Shown here in pieces: positions 1 through 5,991 of a DNA stretch of 5,991 nt; positions within the stretch are counted from its first letter, which is position 1, and each line of letters begins with the position of its first letter. The translations under genes and the position numbers were made by a program. Location of the stretch: positions 1 through 5,991 of IMG/VR virus record IMGVR_UViG_2698536454_000005; one strand, written 5' to 3'. The notes beneath the pieces were generated by a model. The model searched no databases. It had not been told where the DNA came from and was given only the letters and a program-made list of their open reading frames with translations. This stretch comes from a virus. Its lineage: Duplodnaviria; Heunggongvirae; Uroviricota; Caudoviricetes.

Positions 1-1
1 G

Positions 2-659
<658 letters not shown>

Positions 660-662
660 TCC

Positions 663-995
663 ATGCATCGTATAGACACGAAAACCGCGCAGAAGGATAA
701 GTTCGGCGCGGGTAAGAACGGTTTTACCCGTGGTAACCCCCAGACCGGCACACCTGCCACCGATCTGGATGATGACTACTTTGACATGTTGCAGGAAGAA
801 CTCTGCAGCGTGGTGGAGGCATCCGGTGCCAGCCTGGAGAAGGGGCGGCATGACCAGCTGCTTACCGCGCTTCGTGCGCTGCTGTTAAGCCGCAAGAATC
901 CGTTTGGCGATATCAAATCTGATGGCACGGTGAAAACGGCTCTCGAAAACCTTGGTTTGGGAGAAGATCAGTTCAACACTATTGTTTCAGAATAA
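663..995 (+). CDS. Tail-fibre protein, constant N-terminal part (Sc-like), ending in a 9-codon stub after a crossover-site copy; truncated in this arrangement
   Basis: ATG 663 is preceded by GGAG with 6-nt spacing. The N-terminus [21 protein letters not shown] is what I recall from Mu-like/e14-like fibre N-termini. Codons ENLGLGE (946-966) are encoded by the crossover core that also begins both variable cassettes. After the core the frame runs only DQFNTIVSE then TAA. Confidence 0.75.
940..965 (+). other. Site A: 26-bp invertase crossover site inside the fibre constant-part codons (ctctcgaaaacc tt ggtttgggagaa)
   Basis: Near-palindromic 12+2+12 layout. The right half plus next base is identical to 2510-2522 and to the reverse complement of 5912-5924. 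Central dinucleotide tt at 952-953. Same orientation as site B. Confidence 0.6.
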
Positions 996-1046
996 TCACT
1001 TAACCCCATTTATGTCGGTTGAGGTTATAAGTCACGGAGACCAGAT

Positions 1047-1391
1047 ATGTCCTTAAAGTATGCACATGAAAAATTTCATACTGCAGTACTTACTCTTGCG
1101 GGCCATGGAAGTATTCAAGAACGCTTGATTAATTCGTATGTTTTTAGCCTTGGGCATCTTAAAACAGCCGATGATATTCCAAATGCCTTACAAAGCAGGT
1201 TCGATGAATTATGTAAGGAACTGACTAAGTTTGATGCCACTGGCGATGAGGGGCGAGTTCAAGCAACAGTATCAAAACTTAACGATTTCGAGATCAATAA
1301 ACTGATCGAAGATATTGTCAGTCTTAACGATGATATTTGCATGAAATTGGCTCTGACGGATGAGACTTACCAAGACATACACCAAAGTTAA
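1047..1391 (+). CDS. Hypothetical small acidic protein (114 aa), AT-rich cargo gene of unknown function
   Basis: ATG 1047 preceded by GGAG 1036-1039 with 7-nt spacing. A hand-counted 100-bp sample at 1047-1146 is about 35% GC, against about 55% for 701-800. Hand count gives 19 Asp+Glu versus 11 Lys+Arg. No motif I can assign. Confidence 0.65.
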   Translation: MSLKYAHEKFHTAVLTLAGHGSIQERLINSYVFSLGHLKTADDIPNALQSRFDELCKELTKFDATGDEGRVQATVSKLNDFEINKLIEDIVSLNDDICMKLALTDETYQDIHQS

Positions 1392-1418
1392 TTGATTAAA
1401 TTCAAAAAGTTAACGTTC

Positions 1419-1441
1419 AACCAGCCAGTTTTTGGCTGGTT
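1419..1441. terminator. Putative bidirectional intrinsic terminator between the convergent 114-aa and 70-aa genes
   Basis: Perfect 9-bp stem aaccagcca (1419-1427) / tggctggtt (1433-1441) with a 5-nt loop. T-rich tract follows on the plus strand (1442-1450). On the minus strand it is followed by an A/T-rich tract containing a T5 run (complement of 1403-1407). Confidence 0.5.
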
Positions 1442-1475
1442 TATTGTCTTATAATATTCTTGCTCGAATGATGCA

Positions 1476-1688
1476 CTATTTATGATGTAATCCGGACATC
1501 AGTTCATGGACAAGATTATCTCTTTCATTGTGTTGCAACCGTAAATGCATAGCAAAAAGGTGAGCACTATCCTCATTCCTCTTCAAGCCATGCTGTTCAA
1601 GATACCCGAAAAAACGGCTTCTCTTATCCGCTATTTCCTGAGTCTGACGTGCAACATTTACCAAATTTTCTAGCGTTTTTCTTGGCAT
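1476..1688 (-). CDS. Hypothetical small His-rich protein (70 aa), cargo gene downstream of the invertase on the same strand
   Basis: ATG is the complement of 1686-1688. A perfect AGGAGG Shine-Dalgarno (complement of 1696-1701) lies 7 nt upstream. AT-rich. Seven His, no Cys. No recognisable motif. Confidence 0.65.
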   Translation of the reverse strand: MPRKTLENLVNVARQTQEIADKRSRFFGYLEQHGLKRNEDSAHLFAMHLRLQHNERDNLVHELMSGLHHK

Positions 1689-1886
1689 ACTATTTCCTCC
1701 TGAAATTGTTGTAATTCACTAGGATATTCATTTTAATTTGTATCATTTAGTACCAAAACCGCTATCAATTAACAAAGCCATCGTTGTGGTTTACCTTGCA
1801 GCCGTTTTTTGTCATTGACTCTATGTGAAAATAATGAATCATCATGAGATTGGCTCACACGTTCTTGAATTCGACGAGCTGTGTCT

Positions 1887-2441
1887 TTATTTATCTCCTG
1901 CCGGAAACCTCTGATACAAAGTCGATACGCCAACATCATAGATAATCGCAACTTTCTGGCGCGGAACTCCTGATGCAATTAATCGTCCGGCTTGTGCCCA
2001 TTGTTCTGGTGTAAGTTTGGGACGACGTCCACCAATTCGTCCCTGTGCGCGAGCAGCTTCCAGTCCAGCTTTTGTTCGTTCAACAATCAGTTCTCGTTCC
2101 ATTTCAGCCAGGGCCCCCATCACATGAAAGAAAAAGCGCCCCATTGGGGTACTGGTATCAATTGAATCCGTCAGACTACGAAAGTTGATGCCTCGTTCGC
2201 GCAACTCCTCCACCAGCACGACAAGATGCCGCATACTGCGCCCCAGTCGGTCCAGTTTCCAGACCACCAGCGTATCGCCTGCCGATAATGTCCTGAGCAG
2301 TTTTTTCAGTCCCGGCCTTTCGGACTTTGTACCGCTTATCTTGTCTTCAAAAATCAGCTCGCATCCTGCACAGTTCAGCGCATTACGTTGTAGATCTGTG
2401 TTCTGGTCATTTGTTGACACACGTACATAGCCAATAAGCAT
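1887..2441 (-). CDS. pin: Site-specific serine DNA invertase, Hin/Gin/Cin/Pin family
   Basis: Starting from the MLIGYVRVSTNDQ methionine (complement of 2439-2441) gives 184 aa. Catalytic serine lies in the RVSTNDQ context near the N-terminus. Conserved blocks LVVWKLDRLGRS and GRFFFHVMGALAEMERELI are present, with a C-terminal helix-turn-helix (GVSTLYQRFP). AGGGAG sits 7 nt upstream. The ORF-track start at 2477 adds 12 residues encoded by the inverted repeat and is probably not the real start. Confidence 0.93.
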   Translation of the reverse strand: MLIGYVRVSTNDQNTDLQRNALNCAGCELIFEDKISGTKSERPGLKKLLRTLSAGDTLVVWKLDRLGRSMRHLVVLVEELRERGINFRSLTDSIDTSTPMGRFFFHVMGALAEMERELIVERTKAGLEAARAQGRIGGRRPKLTPEQWAQAGRLIASGVPRQKVAIIYDVGVSTLYQRFPAGDK

Positions 2442-2442
2442 G

Positions 2443-2522
2443 GTAGATCTCCCTGACAAAAGCAGGAATGATGCCATTTGCTCGTTATTTCTGCATTTTC
2501 ATAAACGTTGGTTTGGGAGAAG
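2443..2522. repeat. Left inverted repeat (80 bp) of the invertible segment; contains the invertase RBS and site B
   Basis: 2443-2522 is the exact reverse complement of 5912-5991, compared base by base. Identity ends at 2523/5911. Confidence 0.9.
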
Positions 2523-2962
2523 CGGCAAAACGAAATGTGGGCAACGGGGAAAACCAAATCCCTGATATGTCTTTCTGGACGGTTACTGGTGGCAATGGAA
2601 ATTTTGTGATTCGTCAACCTGACGGGCTAATCATTCAGATGGTTACTGTAAGTATAAGCGGTCCAGTGGCGATGAATGGAATGACTGATAATGCTTATGC
2701 CATTACAGGTTCTAATAAGTCTTATATTGCCACAGCCACATTGCCCTTTGTATTTCCTAATAAGGTGCTGGGCGTTATCCCTCTGGTATCAACAACAGCT
2801 TATGGTGGTGTATCCAGTAATATTACAGGTTCATACGCGACGGCGGTTTGTTCTTTTGCCGCTGTCAGGGGGAATAATACGATTGTGTTCAAAGTCGACA
2901 AACCACTGAATGCAGCCTTTCCTTCAGATACCAGCGTCTCAGCGTTAATCATTGGACGGTAA
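2468..2962 (+). CDS. Tail-fibre C-terminal variable cassette Sv1; the first 18 codons are encoded by the inverted repeat and the cassette is not joined to the constant part in this arrangement
   Basis: The frame is continuous with the GLGE codons of the crossover core and unique sequence starts at 2523. Gly/Thr/Ser/Asn/Val-rich 146-aa tip. Stop TAA 2960-2962 is followed 2 nt later by the ATG of a tail-fibre assembly gene. Confidence 0.65.
   Translation: MMPFARYFCIFINVGLGEAAKRNVGNGENQIPDMSFWTVTGGNGNFVIRQPDGLIIQMVTVSISGPVAMNGMTDNAYAITGSNKSYIATATLPFVFPNKVLGVIPLVSTTAYGGVSSNITGSYATAVCSFAAVRGNNTIVFKVDKPLNAAFPSDTSVSALIIGR
2496..2521 (+). other. Site B: 26-bp crossover site (ttttcataaacg tt ggtttgggagaa)
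   Basis: 12+2+12 layout with central tt at 2508-2509. Resembles hix/gix-type sites as I recall them. Lies at the inner end of the left inverted repeat. Confidence 0.7.
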
Positions 2963-3978
2963 GAATGAACTCAGTATTCTTTTCACCCGCAAGTAAAAGT
3001 TTTTATCTGCAAGAATTGTTTCCAGAATATGAGGATGCGGGAACGCTTCCTGATGATGTTATTGAAATTACCAGAGAAACATATGAGCAATTTCTTGGGC
3101 TGCATCCAGAAGGGAAAGAAATTGGCGCTGACAGTTCAGGACGGCCAATATGGATTAATTCCCCGCCGCCTTCAAAAGAGGATGAGATGCTGGCGGCTGA
3201 AATGAAAAAGATATCTTTGGTTTCAGAAGTCAATACCTACATCAATACCCATCAGTGGCCTGGCAAAGCTGCTATTGGTCGTCTGAAAGGTTACGAGCTG
3301 GAACAATATAATTTATGGCTGGATTATCTGGACGCACTGGAACTGGTTGATACCTCCAGTGCTCCAGATATTGAATGGCCTACGCCTCCGGTAGTTCAGG
3401 CCAGATGACATCCGGCGCGGTGCTGGTATCTGTTGCAGTCACCGCGTCAATGTAATCCAGCACAGCGTTAAGCCGGGTTGTTTCTGCCTGCGTCAGCTTC
3501 CGCCCGGCCTGCAATTTCAGCTGAATCAGACTAATGGAAGCCATAGCAGCATCAATCAGTGACTGGCGCCGTACTTCTGCCGCGTCTACTGCGGCGTTAT
3601 GCTGTGCCTCAGTATCGGTCACCCATTTCTCACCATCCCATTTATCGTATGACGTTAACGGGGCGATAGTGGTTGTATTTTCAGGGTAATCACCCGGAAC
3701 TGTGATTTCTTTTGATTCTCCTGTTTCGGTGCTATAGACGATTTCACCGCGATGGTCTGGCACATATTCCCATGAGTTAAAATCTGCAGAACGGCAAATT
3801 GCATAACCAGCTTTATATGAGCCAGGAGCATCTAAACAGGAACATGCCGGGATACCAACACCCACAGCAAGATATTCAGTTGATGTGGAAATATATTCCC
3901 GTGTTTCACCATCATAATTATAAACGGTAATGTCTCCGGCCTTTGTGGCGATGAGTTCATTATTTAATACAGCTTTAC
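2508..3978. repeat. Tandem direct repeat, copy 1 (1471 bp)
   Basis: Matches 3980-5450 at an offset of 1472. Supported by identical translations of three ORF pairs and by reading the boundary regions and one ~470-nt internal stretch directly. Base 3979 matches neither flank. Confidence 0.85.
2965..3408 (+). CDS. Tail-fibre assembly chaperone (Tfa; Mu U / P2 G family) partnered with Sv1
   Basis: C-terminus DTSSAPDIEWPTPP matches the conserved Tfa C-terminal motif (compare APDVIWPELP in the other Tfa here). Coupled immediately downstream of Sv1. Confidence 0.8.
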   Translation: MNSVFFSPASKSFYLQELFPEYEDAGTLPDDVIEITRETYEQFLGLHPEGKEIGADSSGRPIWINSPPPSKEDEMLAAEMKKISLVSEVNTYINTHQWPGKAAIGRLKGYELEQYNLWLDYLDALELVDTSSAPDIEWPTPPVVQAR

Positions 3979-4000
3979 ATTGGTTTGGGAGAAGCGGCAA
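3380..4000 (-). CDS. Tail-fibre assembly chaperone (Tfa) copy whose native ATG start is replaced by the duplication junction; possibly non-functional
   Basis: Identical to the 4852-5457 product from KAVLNNELIATK onward. The native MIS start is absent and the only in-frame start is TTG at 4000, inside the crossover core. Its 3' end overlaps the convergent Tfa gene by 29 bp (3380-3408). Confidence 0.45.
   Translation of the reverse strand: MPLLPNQCKAVLNNELIATKAGDITVYNYDGETREYISTSTEYLAVGVGIPACSCLDAPGSYKAGYAICRSADFNSWEYVPDHRGEIVYSTETGESKEITVPGDYPENTTTIAPLTSYDKWDGEKWVTDTEAQHNAAVDAAEVRRQSLIDAAMASISLIQLKLQAGRKLTQAETTRLNAVLDYIDAVTATDTSTAPDVIWPELPEA
3968..3993 (+). other. Site C: hybrid junction carrying a crossover core half-site (tacagctttaca tt ggtttgggagaa)
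   Basis: The right half and central tt are identical to sites A and B. The left half is the start region of the Tfa gene and does not resemble a site half. Probably a recombination product junction rather than a functional full site. Confidence 0.5.
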
Positions 4001-4434
4001 AACGAAATGTGGGCAACGGGGAAAACCAAATCCCTGATATGTCTTTCTGGACGGTTACTGGTGGCAATGGAAATTTTGTGATTCGTCAACCTGACGGGCT
4101 AATCATTCAGATGGTTACTGTAAGTATAAGCGGTCCAGTGGCGATGAATGGAATGACTGATAATGCTTATGCCATTACAGGTTCTAATAAGTCTTATATT
4201 GCCACAGCCACATTGCCCTTTGTATTTCCTAATAAGGTGCTGGGCGTTATCCCTCTGGTATCAACAACAGCTTATGGTGGTGTATCCAGTAATATTACAG
4301 GTTCATACGCGACGGCGGTTTGTTCTTTTGCCGCTGTCAGGGGGAATAATACGATTGTGTTCAAAGTCGACAAACCACTGAATGCAGCCTTTCCTTCAGA
4401 TACCAGCGTCTCAGCGTTAATCATTGGACGGTAA
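3985..4434 (+). CDS. Duplicate Sv1 variable cassette with no start codon; expressible only if fused to the constant part at site C
   Basis: Translation identical to Sv1 from GEAAKRNVG onward. The frame is closed upstream by TGA at 3952-3954 and has no ATG. Begins at the crossover core. Confidence 0.5.
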   Translation: MGEAAKRNVGNGENQIPDMSFWTVTGGNGNFVIRQPDGLIIQMVTVSISGPVAMNGMTDNAYAITGSNKSYIATATLPFVFPNKVLGVIPLVSTTAYGGVSSNITGSYATAVCSFAAVRGNNTIVFKVDKPLNAAFPSDTSVSALIIGR

Positions 4435-4436
4435 GA

Positions 4437-4880
4437 ATGAACTCAGTATTCTTTTCACCCGCAAGTAAAAGTTTTTATCTGCAAGAATTGTTTCCAGAAT
4501 ATGAGGATGCGGGAACGCTTCCTGATGATGTTATTGAAATTACCAGAGAAACATATGAGCAATTTCTTGGGCTGCATCCAGAAGGGAAAGAAATTGGCGC
4601 TGACAGTTCAGGACGGCCAATATGGATTAATTCCCCGCCGCCTTCAAAAGAGGATGAGATGCTGGCGGCTGAAATGAAAAAGATATCTTTGGTTTCAGAA
4701 GTCAATACCTACATCAATACCCATCAGTGGCCTGGCAAAGCTGCTATTGGTCGTCTGAAAGGTTACGAGCTGGAACAATATAATTTATGGCTGGATTATC
4801 TGGACGCACTGGAACTGGTTGATACCTCCAGTGCTCCAGATATTGAATGGCCTACGCCTCCGGTAGTTCAGGCCAGATGA
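4437..4880 (+). CDS. Tail-fibre assembly chaperone (Tfa), duplicate of 2965-3408
   Basis: Translation identical to the 2965-3408 product. Confidence 0.75.
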   Translation: MNSVFFSPASKSFYLQELFPEYEDAGTLPDDVIEITRETYEQFLGLHPEGKEIGADSSGRPIWINSPPPSKEDEMLAAEMKKISLVSEVNTYINTHQWPGKAAIGRLKGYELEQYNLWLDYLDALELVDTSSAPDIEWPTPPVVQAR

Positions 4881-5457
4881 CATCCGGCGCGGTGCTGGTA
4901 TCTGTTGCAGTCACCGCGTCAATGTAATCCAGCACAGCGTTAAGCCGGGTTGTTTCTGCCTGCGTCAGCTTCCGCCCGGCCTGCAATTTCAGCTGAATCA
5001 GACTAATGGAAGCCATAGCAGCATCAATCAGTGACTGGCGCCGTACTTCTGCCGCGTCTACTGCGGCGTTATGCTGTGCCTCAGTATCGGTCACCCATTT
5101 CTCACCATCCCATTTATCGTATGACGTTAACGGGGCGATAGTGGTTGTATTTTCAGGGTAATCACCCGGAACTGTGATTTCTTTTGATTCTCCTGTTTCG
5201 GTGCTATAGACGATTTCACCGCGATGGTCTGGCACATATTCCCATGAGTTAAAATCTGCAGAACGGCAAATTGCATAACCAGCTTTATATGAGCCAGGAG
5301 CATCTAAACAGGAACATGCCGGGATACCAACACCCACAGCAAGATATTCAGTTGATGTGGAAATATATTCCCGTGTTTCACCATCATAATTATAAACGGT
5401 AATGTCTCCGGCCTTTGTGGCGATGAGTTCATTATTTAATACAGCTTTACTTATCAT
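4852..5457 (-). CDS. Tail-fibre assembly chaperone (Tfa; TfaE / Mu U' type) partnered with Sv2
   Basis: ATG (complement of 5455-5457) overlaps the Sv2 stop in an ATGA arrangement. C-terminus TSTAPDVIWPELPEA carries the conserved Tfa motif. Confidence 0.85.
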   Translation of the reverse strand: MISKAVLNNELIATKAGDITVYNYDGETREYISTSTEYLAVGVGIPACSCLDAPGSYKAGYAICRSADFNSWEYVPDHRGEIVYSTETGESKEITVPGDYPENTTTIAPLTSYDKWDGEKWVTDTEAQHNAAVDAAEVRRQSLIDAAMASISLIQLKLQAGRKLTQAETTRLNAVLDYIDAVTATDTSTAPDVIWPELPEA

Positions 5458-5966
5458 GCAGCCCTCACAATATAATTAAAGGCGATGTTACGGGAGCGGG
5501 TTTCAGATGCTGTGCGAACTGAGCGAGATGCGTCGAATGTCCAGTTATAAGCGCCATAACCCTCAATAATTTCGGCTTCCTTTAGACCTGTAGATAATAC
5601 TTGCCCATGTTGACTAAATGGCCCTGAACTAAGTACGTCTCTAAAAAGCTGGGTACGCCCAAAAGAACCAACAATATTCTGAATTGCATCATTCTGTGCA
5701 GATAATAAGTTACGACCAGAGTCAATCCCGCGCCCATCATCCCAGCCACGAATAAATTCACCGCGTAAATCTGGTAATTTTAATGTTGGGTAAGCCTTTG
5801 CCAGATTTGGGTACTTTTCAGAAGAAAATACTGCTCCGTTACATTTTAGCCACCCCGTTGGCGGAGTGGCGGAAGGCCACGGAACAGGCACACCAACGGG
5901 TAATGCCGAACCTTCTCCCAAACCAACGTTTATGAAAATGCAGAAATAACGAGCAAATGGCATCAT
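5454..5966 (-). CDS. Tail-fibre C-terminal variable cassette Sv2 (receptor-binding tip of the P2 H / Mu S / Stf type); first 18 codons encoded by the inverted repeat
   Basis: Carries conserved tail-fibre tip motifs: PWPSATPPTGWLKCNGA, YPNLAKAYP, LPDLRGEFIRGWDDGRGID and the C-terminal NIAFNYIVRAA. In frame with GLGE of the crossover core. Confidence 0.85.
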   Translation of the reverse strand: MMPFARYFCIFINVGLGEGSALPVGVPVPWPSATPPTGWLKCNGAVFSSEKYPNLAKAYPTLKLPDLRGEFIRGWDDGRGIDSGRNLLSAQNDAIQNIVGSFGRTQLFRDVLSSGPFSQHGQVLSTGLKEAEIIEGYGAYNWTFDASRSVRTASETRSRNIAFNYIVRAA

Positions 5967-5991
5967 TCCTGCTTTTGTCAGGGAGATCTAC
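5912..5991. repeat. Right inverted repeat (80 bp, cut by the window end)
   Basis: Exact reverse complement of 2443-2522. May extend beyond position 5991. Confidence 0.9.
5913..5938 (+). other. Site D: 26-bp crossover site (ttctcccaaacc aa cgtttatgaaaa), inverted relative to A, B and C
   Basis: Reverse complement of site B, with central aa at 5925-5926. Confidence 0.7.

What the first reader, a model, noticed from the sequence alone, without database searches (positions are those of the whole stretch)
5912..5991. Right inverted repeat duplicates the invertase 5' region and abuts the window edge
The 80-bp repeat includes the invertase Shine-Dalgarno and ends 1 nt before the invertase ATG on the left side. 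On the right side the same sequence reads outward and stops at the window end. If identity continued, the next bases would be c then ATGCTTATTGG, meaning a second invertase gene on the plus strand in the canonical position. The present gene at 1887-2441 could then be an inverted extra copy that travelled with the cargo.
Basis: inference. Interest (0 to 1): 0.45.

Follow-up and report, generated by a model that had tools for sequence, protein, structure and literature searches.

The report
Pin invertase site, chimeric two-isomer contig
The repeat at the window edge is the ordinary right-hand recombination site and pinE/stfE leader of the well-known e14-type invertible tail-fibre segment of E. 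coli, and it looks like an 80-bp duplicate of the invertase 5' region only because this window splices both flip states of that one segment together, most likely as an assembly artefact.

Summary
The 80-nt perfect inverted repeat (2443-2522 / 5912-5991) is real. It consists of the 26-bp Pin crossover site, the start of the stfE ORF and the pinE Shine-Dalgarno.

In complete E. coli genomes that are 100% identical to the window here, the right arm is followed by c+ATGCTTATTGG, which is pinE.

Those genomes have one pinE. The window breaks down exactly into:
- the P(+) isomer (1-966 plus 3980-5991);
- a 3,011-nt fragment of the P(-) isomer read on the other strand (968-3978), inserted at the 15-nt core TTGGTTTGGGAGAAG;
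- one unexplained 'a' at each joint (967 and 3979).

The internal invertase and its "cargo" are simply the native right flank. Both joints sit at the first base where the two isomers differ. They are not at the Pin cleavage centre, and they occur in no other sequence searched.

A simulated mixed-isomer de Bruijn graph breaks at the same positions, and k=81 ends a unitig at 5991. Public records of this same locus also include bogus mini-plasmids cut at or within the same core.

Verdict: this is known biology in a probably chimeric contig. A real inverted duplication with a second pinE is not excluded (about 0.25).

The parts
1..99 (-). End of an IS3-family (IS911-like) insertion sequence, including the first 9 codons of its transposase (27->1). 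The window starts inside this element, which is often multi-copy.
   Evidence: PGAP annotation of L002 4850-6027. L002 4840-6099 matches 100% in unrelated contexts, median 2 and up to 17 places per genome. The terminal TG...CA and the IS911 resemblance are my own reading.
87..659 (+). ymfQ (Mu Gp48-like baseplate/tail protein), left flank of the invertible system
   Evidence: Pfam PF10076, E=8.7e-27; annotation
663..966 (+). Constant N-terminal part of the tail-fibre gene (Sc, StfP-type). In this window the ORF runs on to a stop at 995 after 10 foreign codons, giving a 110-aa truncated product.
   Evidence: PHROG tail fibre families, E=6e-55. Identical to L002 6663-6966. The fusion protein is not on record.
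940..965 (+). Left crossover site (pix) in the tail-fibre gene: CTCTCGAAAACC TT GGTTTGGGAGAA. The core 15-mer is at 952-966.
   Evidence: The e14 P-segment repeats TTGGTTTGGGAGAAGG / CCTTCTCCCAAACCAA are given in PMC12529663.
967..967 (.). Junction base 'a' (J1) between the P(+) left flank and the inverted right-flank block. The two isomers have C or G at this position.
   Evidence: Blast decomposition and sequences. The junction is absent from every collection searched.
968..2522 (-). Exact reverse complement of the native right flank. It holds the last 28 nt of a 343-aa hypothetical gene (968-995), a 114-aa hypothetical ORF (1047-1391, +), a 70-aa hypothetical ORF (1476-1688, -), pinE (1887-2441, -), the leader (2442-2495), the crossover site (2496-2521) and the last core base (2522).
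   Evidence: 1555/1555 identity to L002 10438-8884; annotation
1887..2441 (-). pinE, a small serine DNA invertase (184 aa, MLIGYVRVSTNDQ..., catalytic Ser9)
   Evidence: Pfam Resolvase 1.5e-51 plus HTH_7 3.6e-13. Mu Gin 3UJ3, E=1.3e-93 over residues 1-181. Same protein accession, WP_000904997.1.
2443..2522 (+). Left arm of the 80-nt inverted repeat: pinE Shine-Dalgarno/leader, stfE-type start codon (2468) and crossover site B (2496-2521)
2468..2962 (+). StfE2-type chimeric ORF (18-aa leader MMPFARYFCIFINVGLGE fused to Sv1, gp53-like C-terminal domain). This is the product of the P(-) isomer.
   Evidence: Pfam Gp53-like_C, 5e-05, 24.2 bits, just under Pfam's 24.9-bit cut-off. Same ORF is annotated in L001 7507-7998. 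The exact protein is found on 24 public contigs, all in the ordinary P(-) arrangement. StfE2 is described in PMC12529663.
2965..3408 (+). Tail-fibre assembly chaperone for Sv1 (first copy)
   Evidence: Pfam Caudo_TAP, 6.4e-27
3380..3978 (-). tfaE copy lacking its first 3 codons; end of the inserted P(-) fragment
3979..3979 (.). Junction base 'a' (J2) between the truncated tfaE and a core 15-mer. The natural left neighbours of the core are C (tail-fibre side) or G (pinE side).
   Evidence: The junction is absent elsewhere.
3980..5926 (+). One complete invertible P segment (1947 nt, core to core): Sv1 (to 4434), tfa (4437-4880), tfaE (4852-5457, -) and Sv2 (5454-5911, -)
   Evidence: 100% identical to L002 6952-8898; Pfam hits
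2507..5450 (+). 1472-nt tandem duplication (2507-3978 / 3979-5450), identical apart from the junction base (g2507 vs a3979). It arises because the P(-) fragment and the P(+) segment both contain Sv1-tfa-tfaE'.
5454..5966 (-). StfE ORF (same 18-aa leader fused to Sv2, tail-collar domain). This is the product of the P(+) isomer.
   Evidence: Pfam Collar, 1.7e-15; annotated in L002 8426-8935
5913..5938 (-). Right crossover site (pix): TTCTCCCAAACC AA CGTTTATGAAAA as read on the + strand, i.e. the reverse complement of site B, so inverted relative to site A
5912..5991 (+). Right arm of the 80-nt inverted repeat (the finding): core, half-site, stfE start (5966) and pinE Shine-Dalgarno (5981-5985). 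In reference genomes pinE starts 2 nt further on.

Best explanation
Positions 5912-5991 are the normal right end of an e14-type P invertible tail-fibre segment. They hold the 26-bp Pin crossover site (5913-5938) and the short leader from which stfE (leftwards) and pinE (rightwards, just past the window edge) diverge.

PinE is a Gin-like serine invertase. It pairs this site with the inverted site inside the tail-fibre gene (940-965), cuts both at the central TT/AA dinucleotide and flips the 1.95-kb segment. The flip swaps which C-terminal cassette (Sv1 or Sv2) is fused to the tail-fibre N-terminus and which is fused to the stfE leader. This step is inferred from homology and from the literature.

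Naturally the two sites share only the 15-nt core. The repeat is 80 nt long here, and an inverted pinE sits inside the window, because the window is a composite. It is the intact P(+) isomer (1-966 plus 3980-5991) with a 3,011-nt piece of the P(-) isomer, read on the opposite strand (968-3978), inserted at the core, plus one stray 'a' at each joint.

I think this composite is technical. It could be an assembly, scaffolding or consensus chimera from a culture holding both orientations, with ambiguous C/G or N bases rendered as A. On that reading the underlying genome has a single pinE, and the internal copy and the copy predicted beyond the edge are the same gene.
For: 1. Exact decomposition. 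Window 1-966 = L002 6001-6966. Window 968-2522 = L002 10438-8884. Window 968-3978 is collinear with L001 6004-9014 (the aligned stretch 965-3978 has one mismatch, at 967). Window 3980-5991 = L002 6952-8963. Only 967 and 3979 are unaccounted for.
2. L001 (P-) and L002/L003 (P+) are the same ssrA-linked locus in the two orientations, each with one pinE. The hyp1032/hyp345 junction of the right flank is single-copy in all 46 genomes that have it.
3. The joints lie at the 3' and 5' edges of the core. Bases 967 and 3979 are the first positions at which the isomers differ (C vs G).
4. A de Bruijn graph simulated from a P(+)/P(-) mix ends the left unitig at 966 and starts the segment unitig at the core (=3980) for every k from 31 to 127. 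With k=81 the segment-to-right-flank unitig ends exactly at 5991, so 80 = k-1.
5. The left window end is 99 nt inside an IS that is often multi-copy, a typical contig break.
6. Neither joint nor either fusion ORF exists in 5,426 complete E. coli genomes, GTDB representatives, IMG/VR, JGI metagenomes or the protein index.
7. Assemblers demonstrably mishandle this locus. Three 1.92-kb 'circular plasmids' are the segment alone (CP148528, CP148539, CP148540). A 2.64-kb 'plasmid' is pinE to hyp1032, starting at the base after the core (CP148395).
8. Both e14 orientations coexist in clonal cultures (PMC4272514; PMC12529663).
Against: - I have no reads and do not know the assembler.
- I could not reproduce this exact path. 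A plain de Bruijn graph gives no edge from the left flank to position 968.
- The outer ends of the inserted fragment (968 and 3978) are not at any branch point I could identify. The hyp1032 tail is single-copy. No copy of tfaE in other genomes shares a boundary at that position.
- The left end is 99 nt, not 80 nt, inside the IS, so k=81 fits only one end.
- The conversion of N or S to A is conjecture.
- Perfect identity of the duplicated blocks is equally expected for a very recent real rearrangement.
Confidence: 0.65

Rival explanations
1. This is a real complex rearrangement, which is essentially the first reader's idea. The source chromosome carries an inverted duplication of the right flank (site, leader, pinE, two hypothetical genes) inserted next to the left crossover site. 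It also carries a 1.47-kb tandem duplication of Sv1-tfa-tfaE'. The original pinE still lies just beyond 5991. There would then be two pinE genes in inverted orientation and four core sites. StfE and StfE2-type proteins could be made at the same time.
For: - The right arm continues into pinE in all close relatives.
- The internal block is an exact inverted copy of that flank.
- Each joint shows 2-nt microhomology followed by a base change (AG then a; AC then a). This is the kind of scar seen after replication template switching; that comparison rests on my own knowledge.
- The locus is a dead prophage remnant, with an IS upstream and only ymfQ and the fibre genes left, so a truncated tail-fibre ORF costs nothing.
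Against: - It needs at least two illegitimate joins plus one Pin-type join within 3 kb.
- Two of the four break ends fall exactly on core edges, and both odd bases are 'a' at the C/G isomer-discordant position. Biology gives no reason for either.
- The joints are not at the central dinucleotide where serine invertases cut (952-953; 3980-3981 is approached but has an extra base), so Pin did not make them.
- No series of Pin inversions can change copy number.
- A 1.5-kb perfect inverted repeat and a 1.47-kb perfect tandem repeat would be unstable in a recA+ host.
- Nothing similar occurs in 5,426 complete genomes.
Confidence: 0.25
2. This is a natural multi-site inversion system of the Min/p15B or shufflon type. 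In it the invertase gene itself lies inside one of several invertible segments bounded by the four core sites.
For: There are four exact copies of the 15-nt core in 6 kb. Multi-site Din-family systems exist (my own knowledge; a multi-variant P2-like prophage is mentioned in PMC4272514).
Against: - Three of the four cores (952, 2508, 3980) are in direct orientation, so the pinE block cannot be inverted between them.
- Site C has no recognisable left half-site (TACAGCTTTACA against TTTTCATAAACG / CTCTCGAAAACC).
- The extra sites arise only from duplicated blocks that are 100% identical to a two-site locus.
- No other genome has the arrangement.
Confidence: 0.03
3. This is a chimeric DNA molecule made in vitro, by ligation of two ~3-kb fragments during library preparation or cloning, possibly with dA-tailing supplying the extra A. 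It was then read as one accurate long read or clone.
For: The two components are of similar size (2,963 nt of the P(+) isomer and 3,011 nt of the P(-) isomer) and lie on opposite strands. A single extra A at each joint is what a dA-tailed end would add; that is an inference.
Against: Random fragment ends would not fall on the core edges. One fragment is inserted into the other rather than joined end to end, which needs three pieces and two ligations that restore the P(+) isomer perfectly around a duplicated core.
Confidence: 0.05

Closest known systems
e14 prophage P segment with pinE (E. coli K-12; Plasterk & van de Putte 1985; Mehta et al. 2004; PMC12529663)
   Same: - The core repeat is the same: TTGGTTTGGGAGAAG(G) / (C)CTTCTCCCAAACCAA.
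- The gene set is the same: tail-fibre N-terminus, Sv-tfa, tfaE'-Sv', pinE.
- The stfE leader is the same and gives StfE or StfE2-type chimeras depending on orientation.
- Both orientations are seen in nature.
   Different: - The locus here is a remnant next to ssrA with an IS3-family element upstream. It has different genes downstream of pinE (three hypothetical ORFs; in K-12 e14 the downstream gene is mcrA, from my own knowledge).
- tfaE is about 84% identical to K-12.
- The window adds an inverted copy of the pinE flank and a tandem copy of Sv1-tfa-tfaE' that e14 does not have.
Phage Mu G segment / Gin and phage P1 C segment / Cin
   Same: PinE aligns with Gin over residues 1-181 at E=1e-93, including the catalytic serine motif. 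The pinE 5' coding DNA is 72-74% identical to gin and cin. The logic is the same: an invertase outside the segment, and alternative tail-fibre C-termini with chaperones inside it.
   Different: The crossover half-sites differ, as do the Sv cassettes. Mu and P1 have no stfE-type ORF starting in the invertase leader (my own knowledge).
P2-like phages with an invertible fibre segment (pro483, Fels-2 Fin, phage 'P2' of O157:H43 T22)
   Same: The whole site-leader-invertase 5' block (323 nt) aligns end to end at 80-86% identity, with the tail-fibre gene and the invertase adjacent. The Sv/tfa cassettes are 89-90% identical.
   Different: These are complete functional phages with one invertase in the canonical position.
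Mis-assembled records of this same locus (CP148528, CP148539, CP148540, NZ_CP148395)
   Same: They are fragments of the identical locus, cut within or right after the core repeat, and deposited as 1.9-2.6-kb 'circular plasmids'.
   Different: Each of them holds a single graph segment. The window strings three pieces together.

Membership tests
Din-family (Hin/Gin/Cin/Pin) serine DNA-invertase switch | Small serine recombinase: N-terminal resolvase catalytic domain with the active-site serine, and a C-terminal HTH | tested here: met
   Pfam PF00239, 1.5e-51, and PF02796, 3.6e-13. Gin 3UJ3, E=1.3e-93. The query has S9 where the crystallised Gin mutant has A9.
Din-family (Hin/Gin/Cin/Pin) serine DNA-invertase switch | Two 26-bp crossover sites in inverted orientation, with an identical 2-bp centre, flanking the segment | tested here: met
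   Sites at 940-965 (+) and 5913-5938 (-). Both have centre TT/AA and the inner half-site GGTTTGGGAGAA. The core matches the published e14 repeats.
Din-family (Hin/Gin/Cin/Pin) serine DNA-invertase switch | Invertase gene immediately outside one site | tested here: inconclusive
   Met in the reference genomes and in P2-like phages. In the window itself the only visible copy is the inverted one at 1887-2441. The canonical position lies beyond the edge.
Din-family (Hin/Gin/Cin/Pin) serine DNA-invertase switch | Both orientations of the segment exist | tested here: met
   CP189657 (P-) against CP180607 and CP182220 (P+), with identical flanks. The window itself contains both junction types.
Din-family (Hin/Gin/Cin/Pin) serine DNA-invertase switch | Fis-bound recombinational enhancer in the 5' part of the invertase gene | not tested
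   The only evidence is 72-74% DNA identity of the pinE 5' coding region to gin and cin. No Fis-site analysis was done.
Din-family (Hin/Gin/Cin/Pin) serine DNA-invertase switch | Segment encodes alternative tail-fibre C-termini with their assembly chaperones | tested here: met
   Gp53-like_C (24.2 bits, just under Pfam's 24.9-bit cut-off) and Collar domains, plus two Caudo_TAP genes in opposite orientation
Multiple-inversion systems (Min of p15B, shufflons) | More than two functional sites in mixed orientation bounding independently invertible segments | tested here: not met
   Cores at 952, 2508 and 3980 are direct. Site C lacks a left half-site. The extra cores come from exact duplicated blocks.
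Assembly chimera of two inversion isomers | Every block is identical to one or the other isomer of a single-copy locus | tested here: met
   5,989 of 5,991 bases are accounted for at 100% identity. The locus is single-copy in complete genomes.
Assembly chimera of two inversion isomers | Breaks lie at the positions where reads of the two isomers start to disagree | tested here: inconclusive
   Met for 966/967, 3979/3980 and (for k=81) 5991 in the simulated graph. Not met for the fragment ends at 968 and 3978.
Assembly chimera of two inversion isomers | Novel joints are unsupported by reads, and read depth is single-copy | not testable with these tools
   No reads or source record are available. 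The joints are absent from every collection searched.

The most novel reading that the evidence does not exclude
The arrangement is a real, very recent rearrangement of a Pin switch. An inverted duplication gives two pinE-leader modules facing each other across the segment. A tandem copy of Sv1-tfa-tfaE' adds two more core sites, four in total. The cell could then make both StfE and the StfE2-type chimera at once. In K-12 the StfE2 chimera is reported to block phage T2 adsorption, and normally the two proteins are mutually exclusive.
Probability: 0.2. Interest if true: 0.45.

Novelty: already known. Interest (0 to 1): 0.12.

Why it matters
The main value is cautionary. Invertible segments that exist in both orientations in a culture produce contigs, scaffolds and even deposited 'plasmids' that mimic duplicated invertases, long inverted repeats and cargo. 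This window would be mis-scored as a new architecture if it were read at face value.

If the arrangement were real, it would be a rare case of a phase-variable switch fixed so that both alternative StfE-type products are encoded together. That would bear on the recently reported anti-phage role of e14 inversion. It would still be a private variant of a known system.

Tried and rejected
1. Pin-mediated recombination with pseudo-sites as the origin of the two joints. Rejected because the exchange would be at the central TT (952-953, 3980-3981). J1 is 13 nt away from the centre, and J2 has an extra base. hyp1032 has no pix-like sequence.
2. Deriving the layout from the canonical locus by any series of inversions. 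Rejected because copy number changes.
3. A simple tandem duplication or an integrated circle. This would need a parental site 'CTTTAC-A-core-A-TCAGTTC' that exists nowhere.
4. Finding the source contig so as to read past 5991. I tried an exact look-up of the two fusion ORFs, junction patterns in GTDB, IMG/VR and JGI, and the whole window against E. coli genomes, phages and plasmids. Nothing was found.
5. Explaining the fragment ends 968 and 3978 by boundaries of repeated copies elsewhere in E. coli genomes. Not supported.
6. Fitting k=81 to the left end. It fails: the left end is 99 nt, not 80 nt, inside the IS.
7. A sigma-70 promoter in the leader. No match was found.
8. Family assignment of the three ORFs downstream of pinE. 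Pfam and PADLOC gave nothing. PHROGs gave only one unknown-function family, for the 343-aa protein.

Full report
**Observation.** The window contains a perfect 80-nt inverted repeat, 2443-2522 and 5912-5991.
- The left arm starts one base after the start codon of a minus-strand ORF (ATG = 'cat' at 2439-2441).
- The right arm ends on the last base of the window.
- The ORF is a 184-aa small serine recombinase, with Pfam Resolvase and HTH_7 domains. It aligns with Mu Gin (PDB 3UJ3) at E=1e-93 over residues 1-181.
- The inner 15 nt of the arms, TTGGTTTGGGAGAAG, occur four times in the window (952, 2508 and 3980 on the + strand; 5912 on the - strand) against 0.01 expected.
- This is the published inverted repeat of the e14 P segment (PMC12529663).

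**What the locus is.** Whole-window searches hit thousands of E. coli genomes. Three complete genomes give the reference structure at 100% or near-100% identity. The locus is a prophage remnant next to ssrA, with this gene order:
- an IS3-family element;
- ymfQ;
- the tail-fibre gene (constant N-terminus, crossover site, Sv1);
- tfa;
- tfaE (minus strand);
- Sv2 (minus strand);
- the second crossover site;
- a 54-nt leader, then pinE (+);
- a 70-aa ORF, a 114-aa ORF and a 343-aa ORF;
- ssrA.

CP180607 and CP182220 hold the segment in one orientation (P+). CP189657 holds it in the other (P-). The flanks are the same and each genome has one pinE. The segment carries two alternative fibre tips (a weak gp53-like C-terminal match and a tail-collar domain) and two Caudo_TAP chaperones. 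This is the classical Pin/Gin/Cin design.

**The edge prediction.** In CP180607 the right arm (L002 8884-8963) is followed by 'c ATGCTTATTGGCTATGTACGTGTG...', which is pinE. P2-like phages keep the same contiguous site-leader-invertase block. The canonical position of the invertase is therefore just beyond 5991.

**What the window really contains.** A blast decomposition accounts for 5,989 of the 5,991 bases at 100% identity:

| Block | Window | Matches |
|---|---|---|
| P1 | 1-966 | L002 6001-6966 |
| P2 | 968-3978 | L001 6004-9014 (the P- isomer read from the pinE side) |
| P3 | 3980-5991 | L002 6952-8963 |

- Within P2, window 968-2522 is also the exact reverse complement of L002 8884-10438.
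- P1 and P3 overlap by the 15-nt core. Together they are the uninterrupted P(+) isomer.
- The window is thus the P(+) isomer with 'a' + 3,011 nt of the P(-) isomer + 'a' inserted at the core.
- The internal pinE and its 'cargo' are the native right flank. They are not a travelling module.
- The 1472-nt tandem repeat arises because both pieces contain Sv1-tfa-tfaE'.
- The window simultaneously encodes the StfE ORF (5966-5454) and the StfE2-type ORF (2468-2962). In a single-copy locus these are alternative products of the two orientations.

**The joints.**
- Neither joint is found in 5,426 complete E. coli genomes, GTDB representatives, IMG/VR or JGI metagenomes.
- Neither fusion ORF is in the protein index.
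- The joints are not at the central dinucleotide where a serine invertase cuts.
- hyp1032 has no pix-like sequence, so Pin did not make them.
- They lie at the 3' edge (966/967) and the 5' edge (3979/3980) of the core.
- The two unexplained bases are both 'a'. Each sits at the first position where the two isomers differ (C against G).

**Why I favour an artefact.**
- I simulated a de Bruijn graph from an equal mix of the two isomers. For every k from 31 to 127 the left-flank unitig ends at 966, the segment unitig begins at the core (=3980), and the right-flank unitig begins at 5912.
- For k=81 the segment-to-flank unitig ends exactly at 5991. On that reading the 80-nt repeat is a k-1 overlap.
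- The left end of the window lies 99 nt inside an IS that is often multi-copy, which is a typical contig break.
- Public records show assemblers failing at this same locus. Three 1.92-kb 'circular plasmids' are the segment alone. A 2.64-kb 'plasmid' is pinE to hyp1032 and starts at the base after the core.
- Both orientations are known to coexist in clonal cultures.

**What does not fit.**
- I cannot reproduce the exact path.
- The outer ends of the inserted fragment (968 and 3978) are at no branch point I could find.
- The left end does not fit k=81.
- Rendering N or S as 'a' is conjecture.

A real and very recent rearrangement, with a second pinE beyond the edge, therefore remains possible at about 0.25. 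It would require two illegitimate joins that happen to sit on core edges with the same odd base. It would also require unstable perfect repeats of 1.5 kb.

A natural multi-site inversion system is rejected. Three of the four cores are in direct orientation, and one lacks a half-site.

**Verdict.** The feature is the known pix site and pinE/stfE leader of an e14-type switch. The extended repeat and the inverted invertase most likely reflect a composite of the two inversion isomers. Reads or PCR across 950-990 and 3960-4000 would settle the question.

Noticed in passing
window 2507-3978 and 3979-5450: A 1472-nt tandem duplication of Sv1-tfa-tfaE' (lacking the first 3 tfaE codons), identical apart from the first base (g2507 vs a3979). 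It is explained as overlap between the P(-) fragment and the P(+) segment. It is absent from all complete genomes searched.
   Followed up: yes
window 967 and 3979: The only two bases not accounted for by reference genomes are both 'a'. Both sit where the two inversion isomers have C or G. They may be ambiguity codes or Ns that were converted to A.
   Followed up: partly
window 1-99 (L002 4840-6099): The window begins inside an IS3-family, IS911-like element that truncates the prophage remnant upstream of ymfQ. The element is 100% identical in many unrelated contexts, with up to 17 places per genome.
   Followed up: partly
CP148528.1, NZ_CP148539.1, NZ_CP148540.1 (L005) and NZ_CP148395.1 (L006): Deposited 'complete circular plasmids' of 1.92 kb and 2.64 kb are only the invertible segment or the pinE-hyp1032 flank of this chromosomal locus. 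They are cut within or right after the core repeat and are very probably assembly-graph artefacts in public databases.
   Followed up: partly
window 1047-1391 (+), 1476-1688 (-); L002 10411-11442: Three ORFs lie between pinE and ssrA (114, 70 and 343 aa). They have no Pfam or PADLOC hit, and only one unknown-function PHROG (for the 343-aa protein). The tested hyp345/hyp1032 junction occurs in 46 of 5,426 complete genomes. Their function is unknown.
   Followed up: partly
window 2468-2962 (+) and 5454-5966 (-): Both arms carry the ATGATG start and first 18 codons (MMPFARYFCIFINVGLGE) of an stfE-type ORF that diverges from pinE. Depending on orientation it is fused to Sv2 (StfE) or Sv1 (StfE2-type). 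In K-12 the StfE2 chimera is reported to block phage T2 adsorption (PMC12529663).
   Followed up: partly
L007-L014 (e.g. CP006830.1 1808018-1820512): In other E. coli genomes and metagenome contigs the identical StfE2-type ORF sits in a full Mu-like tail module. In several of them only a 42-aa resolvase remnant is called where pinE should be. Next to it lie GmrSD, DpnII/MboI-like and GIY-YIG genes, which look like a defence-gene cluster.
   Followed up: no
L004 (NZ_CP074704.1, 95-kb P1-like plasmid) 2986-3041 and 4917-4972: A P1-like phage-plasmid carries the same Sv1/tfa cassette (about 94% identical) fused to a 1,107-aa tail fibre. It has near-identical core sites (one is TTGGTTTGGGGGAAG) and its own invertase. 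This shows that these cassettes are exchanged between very different phages.
   Followed up: no
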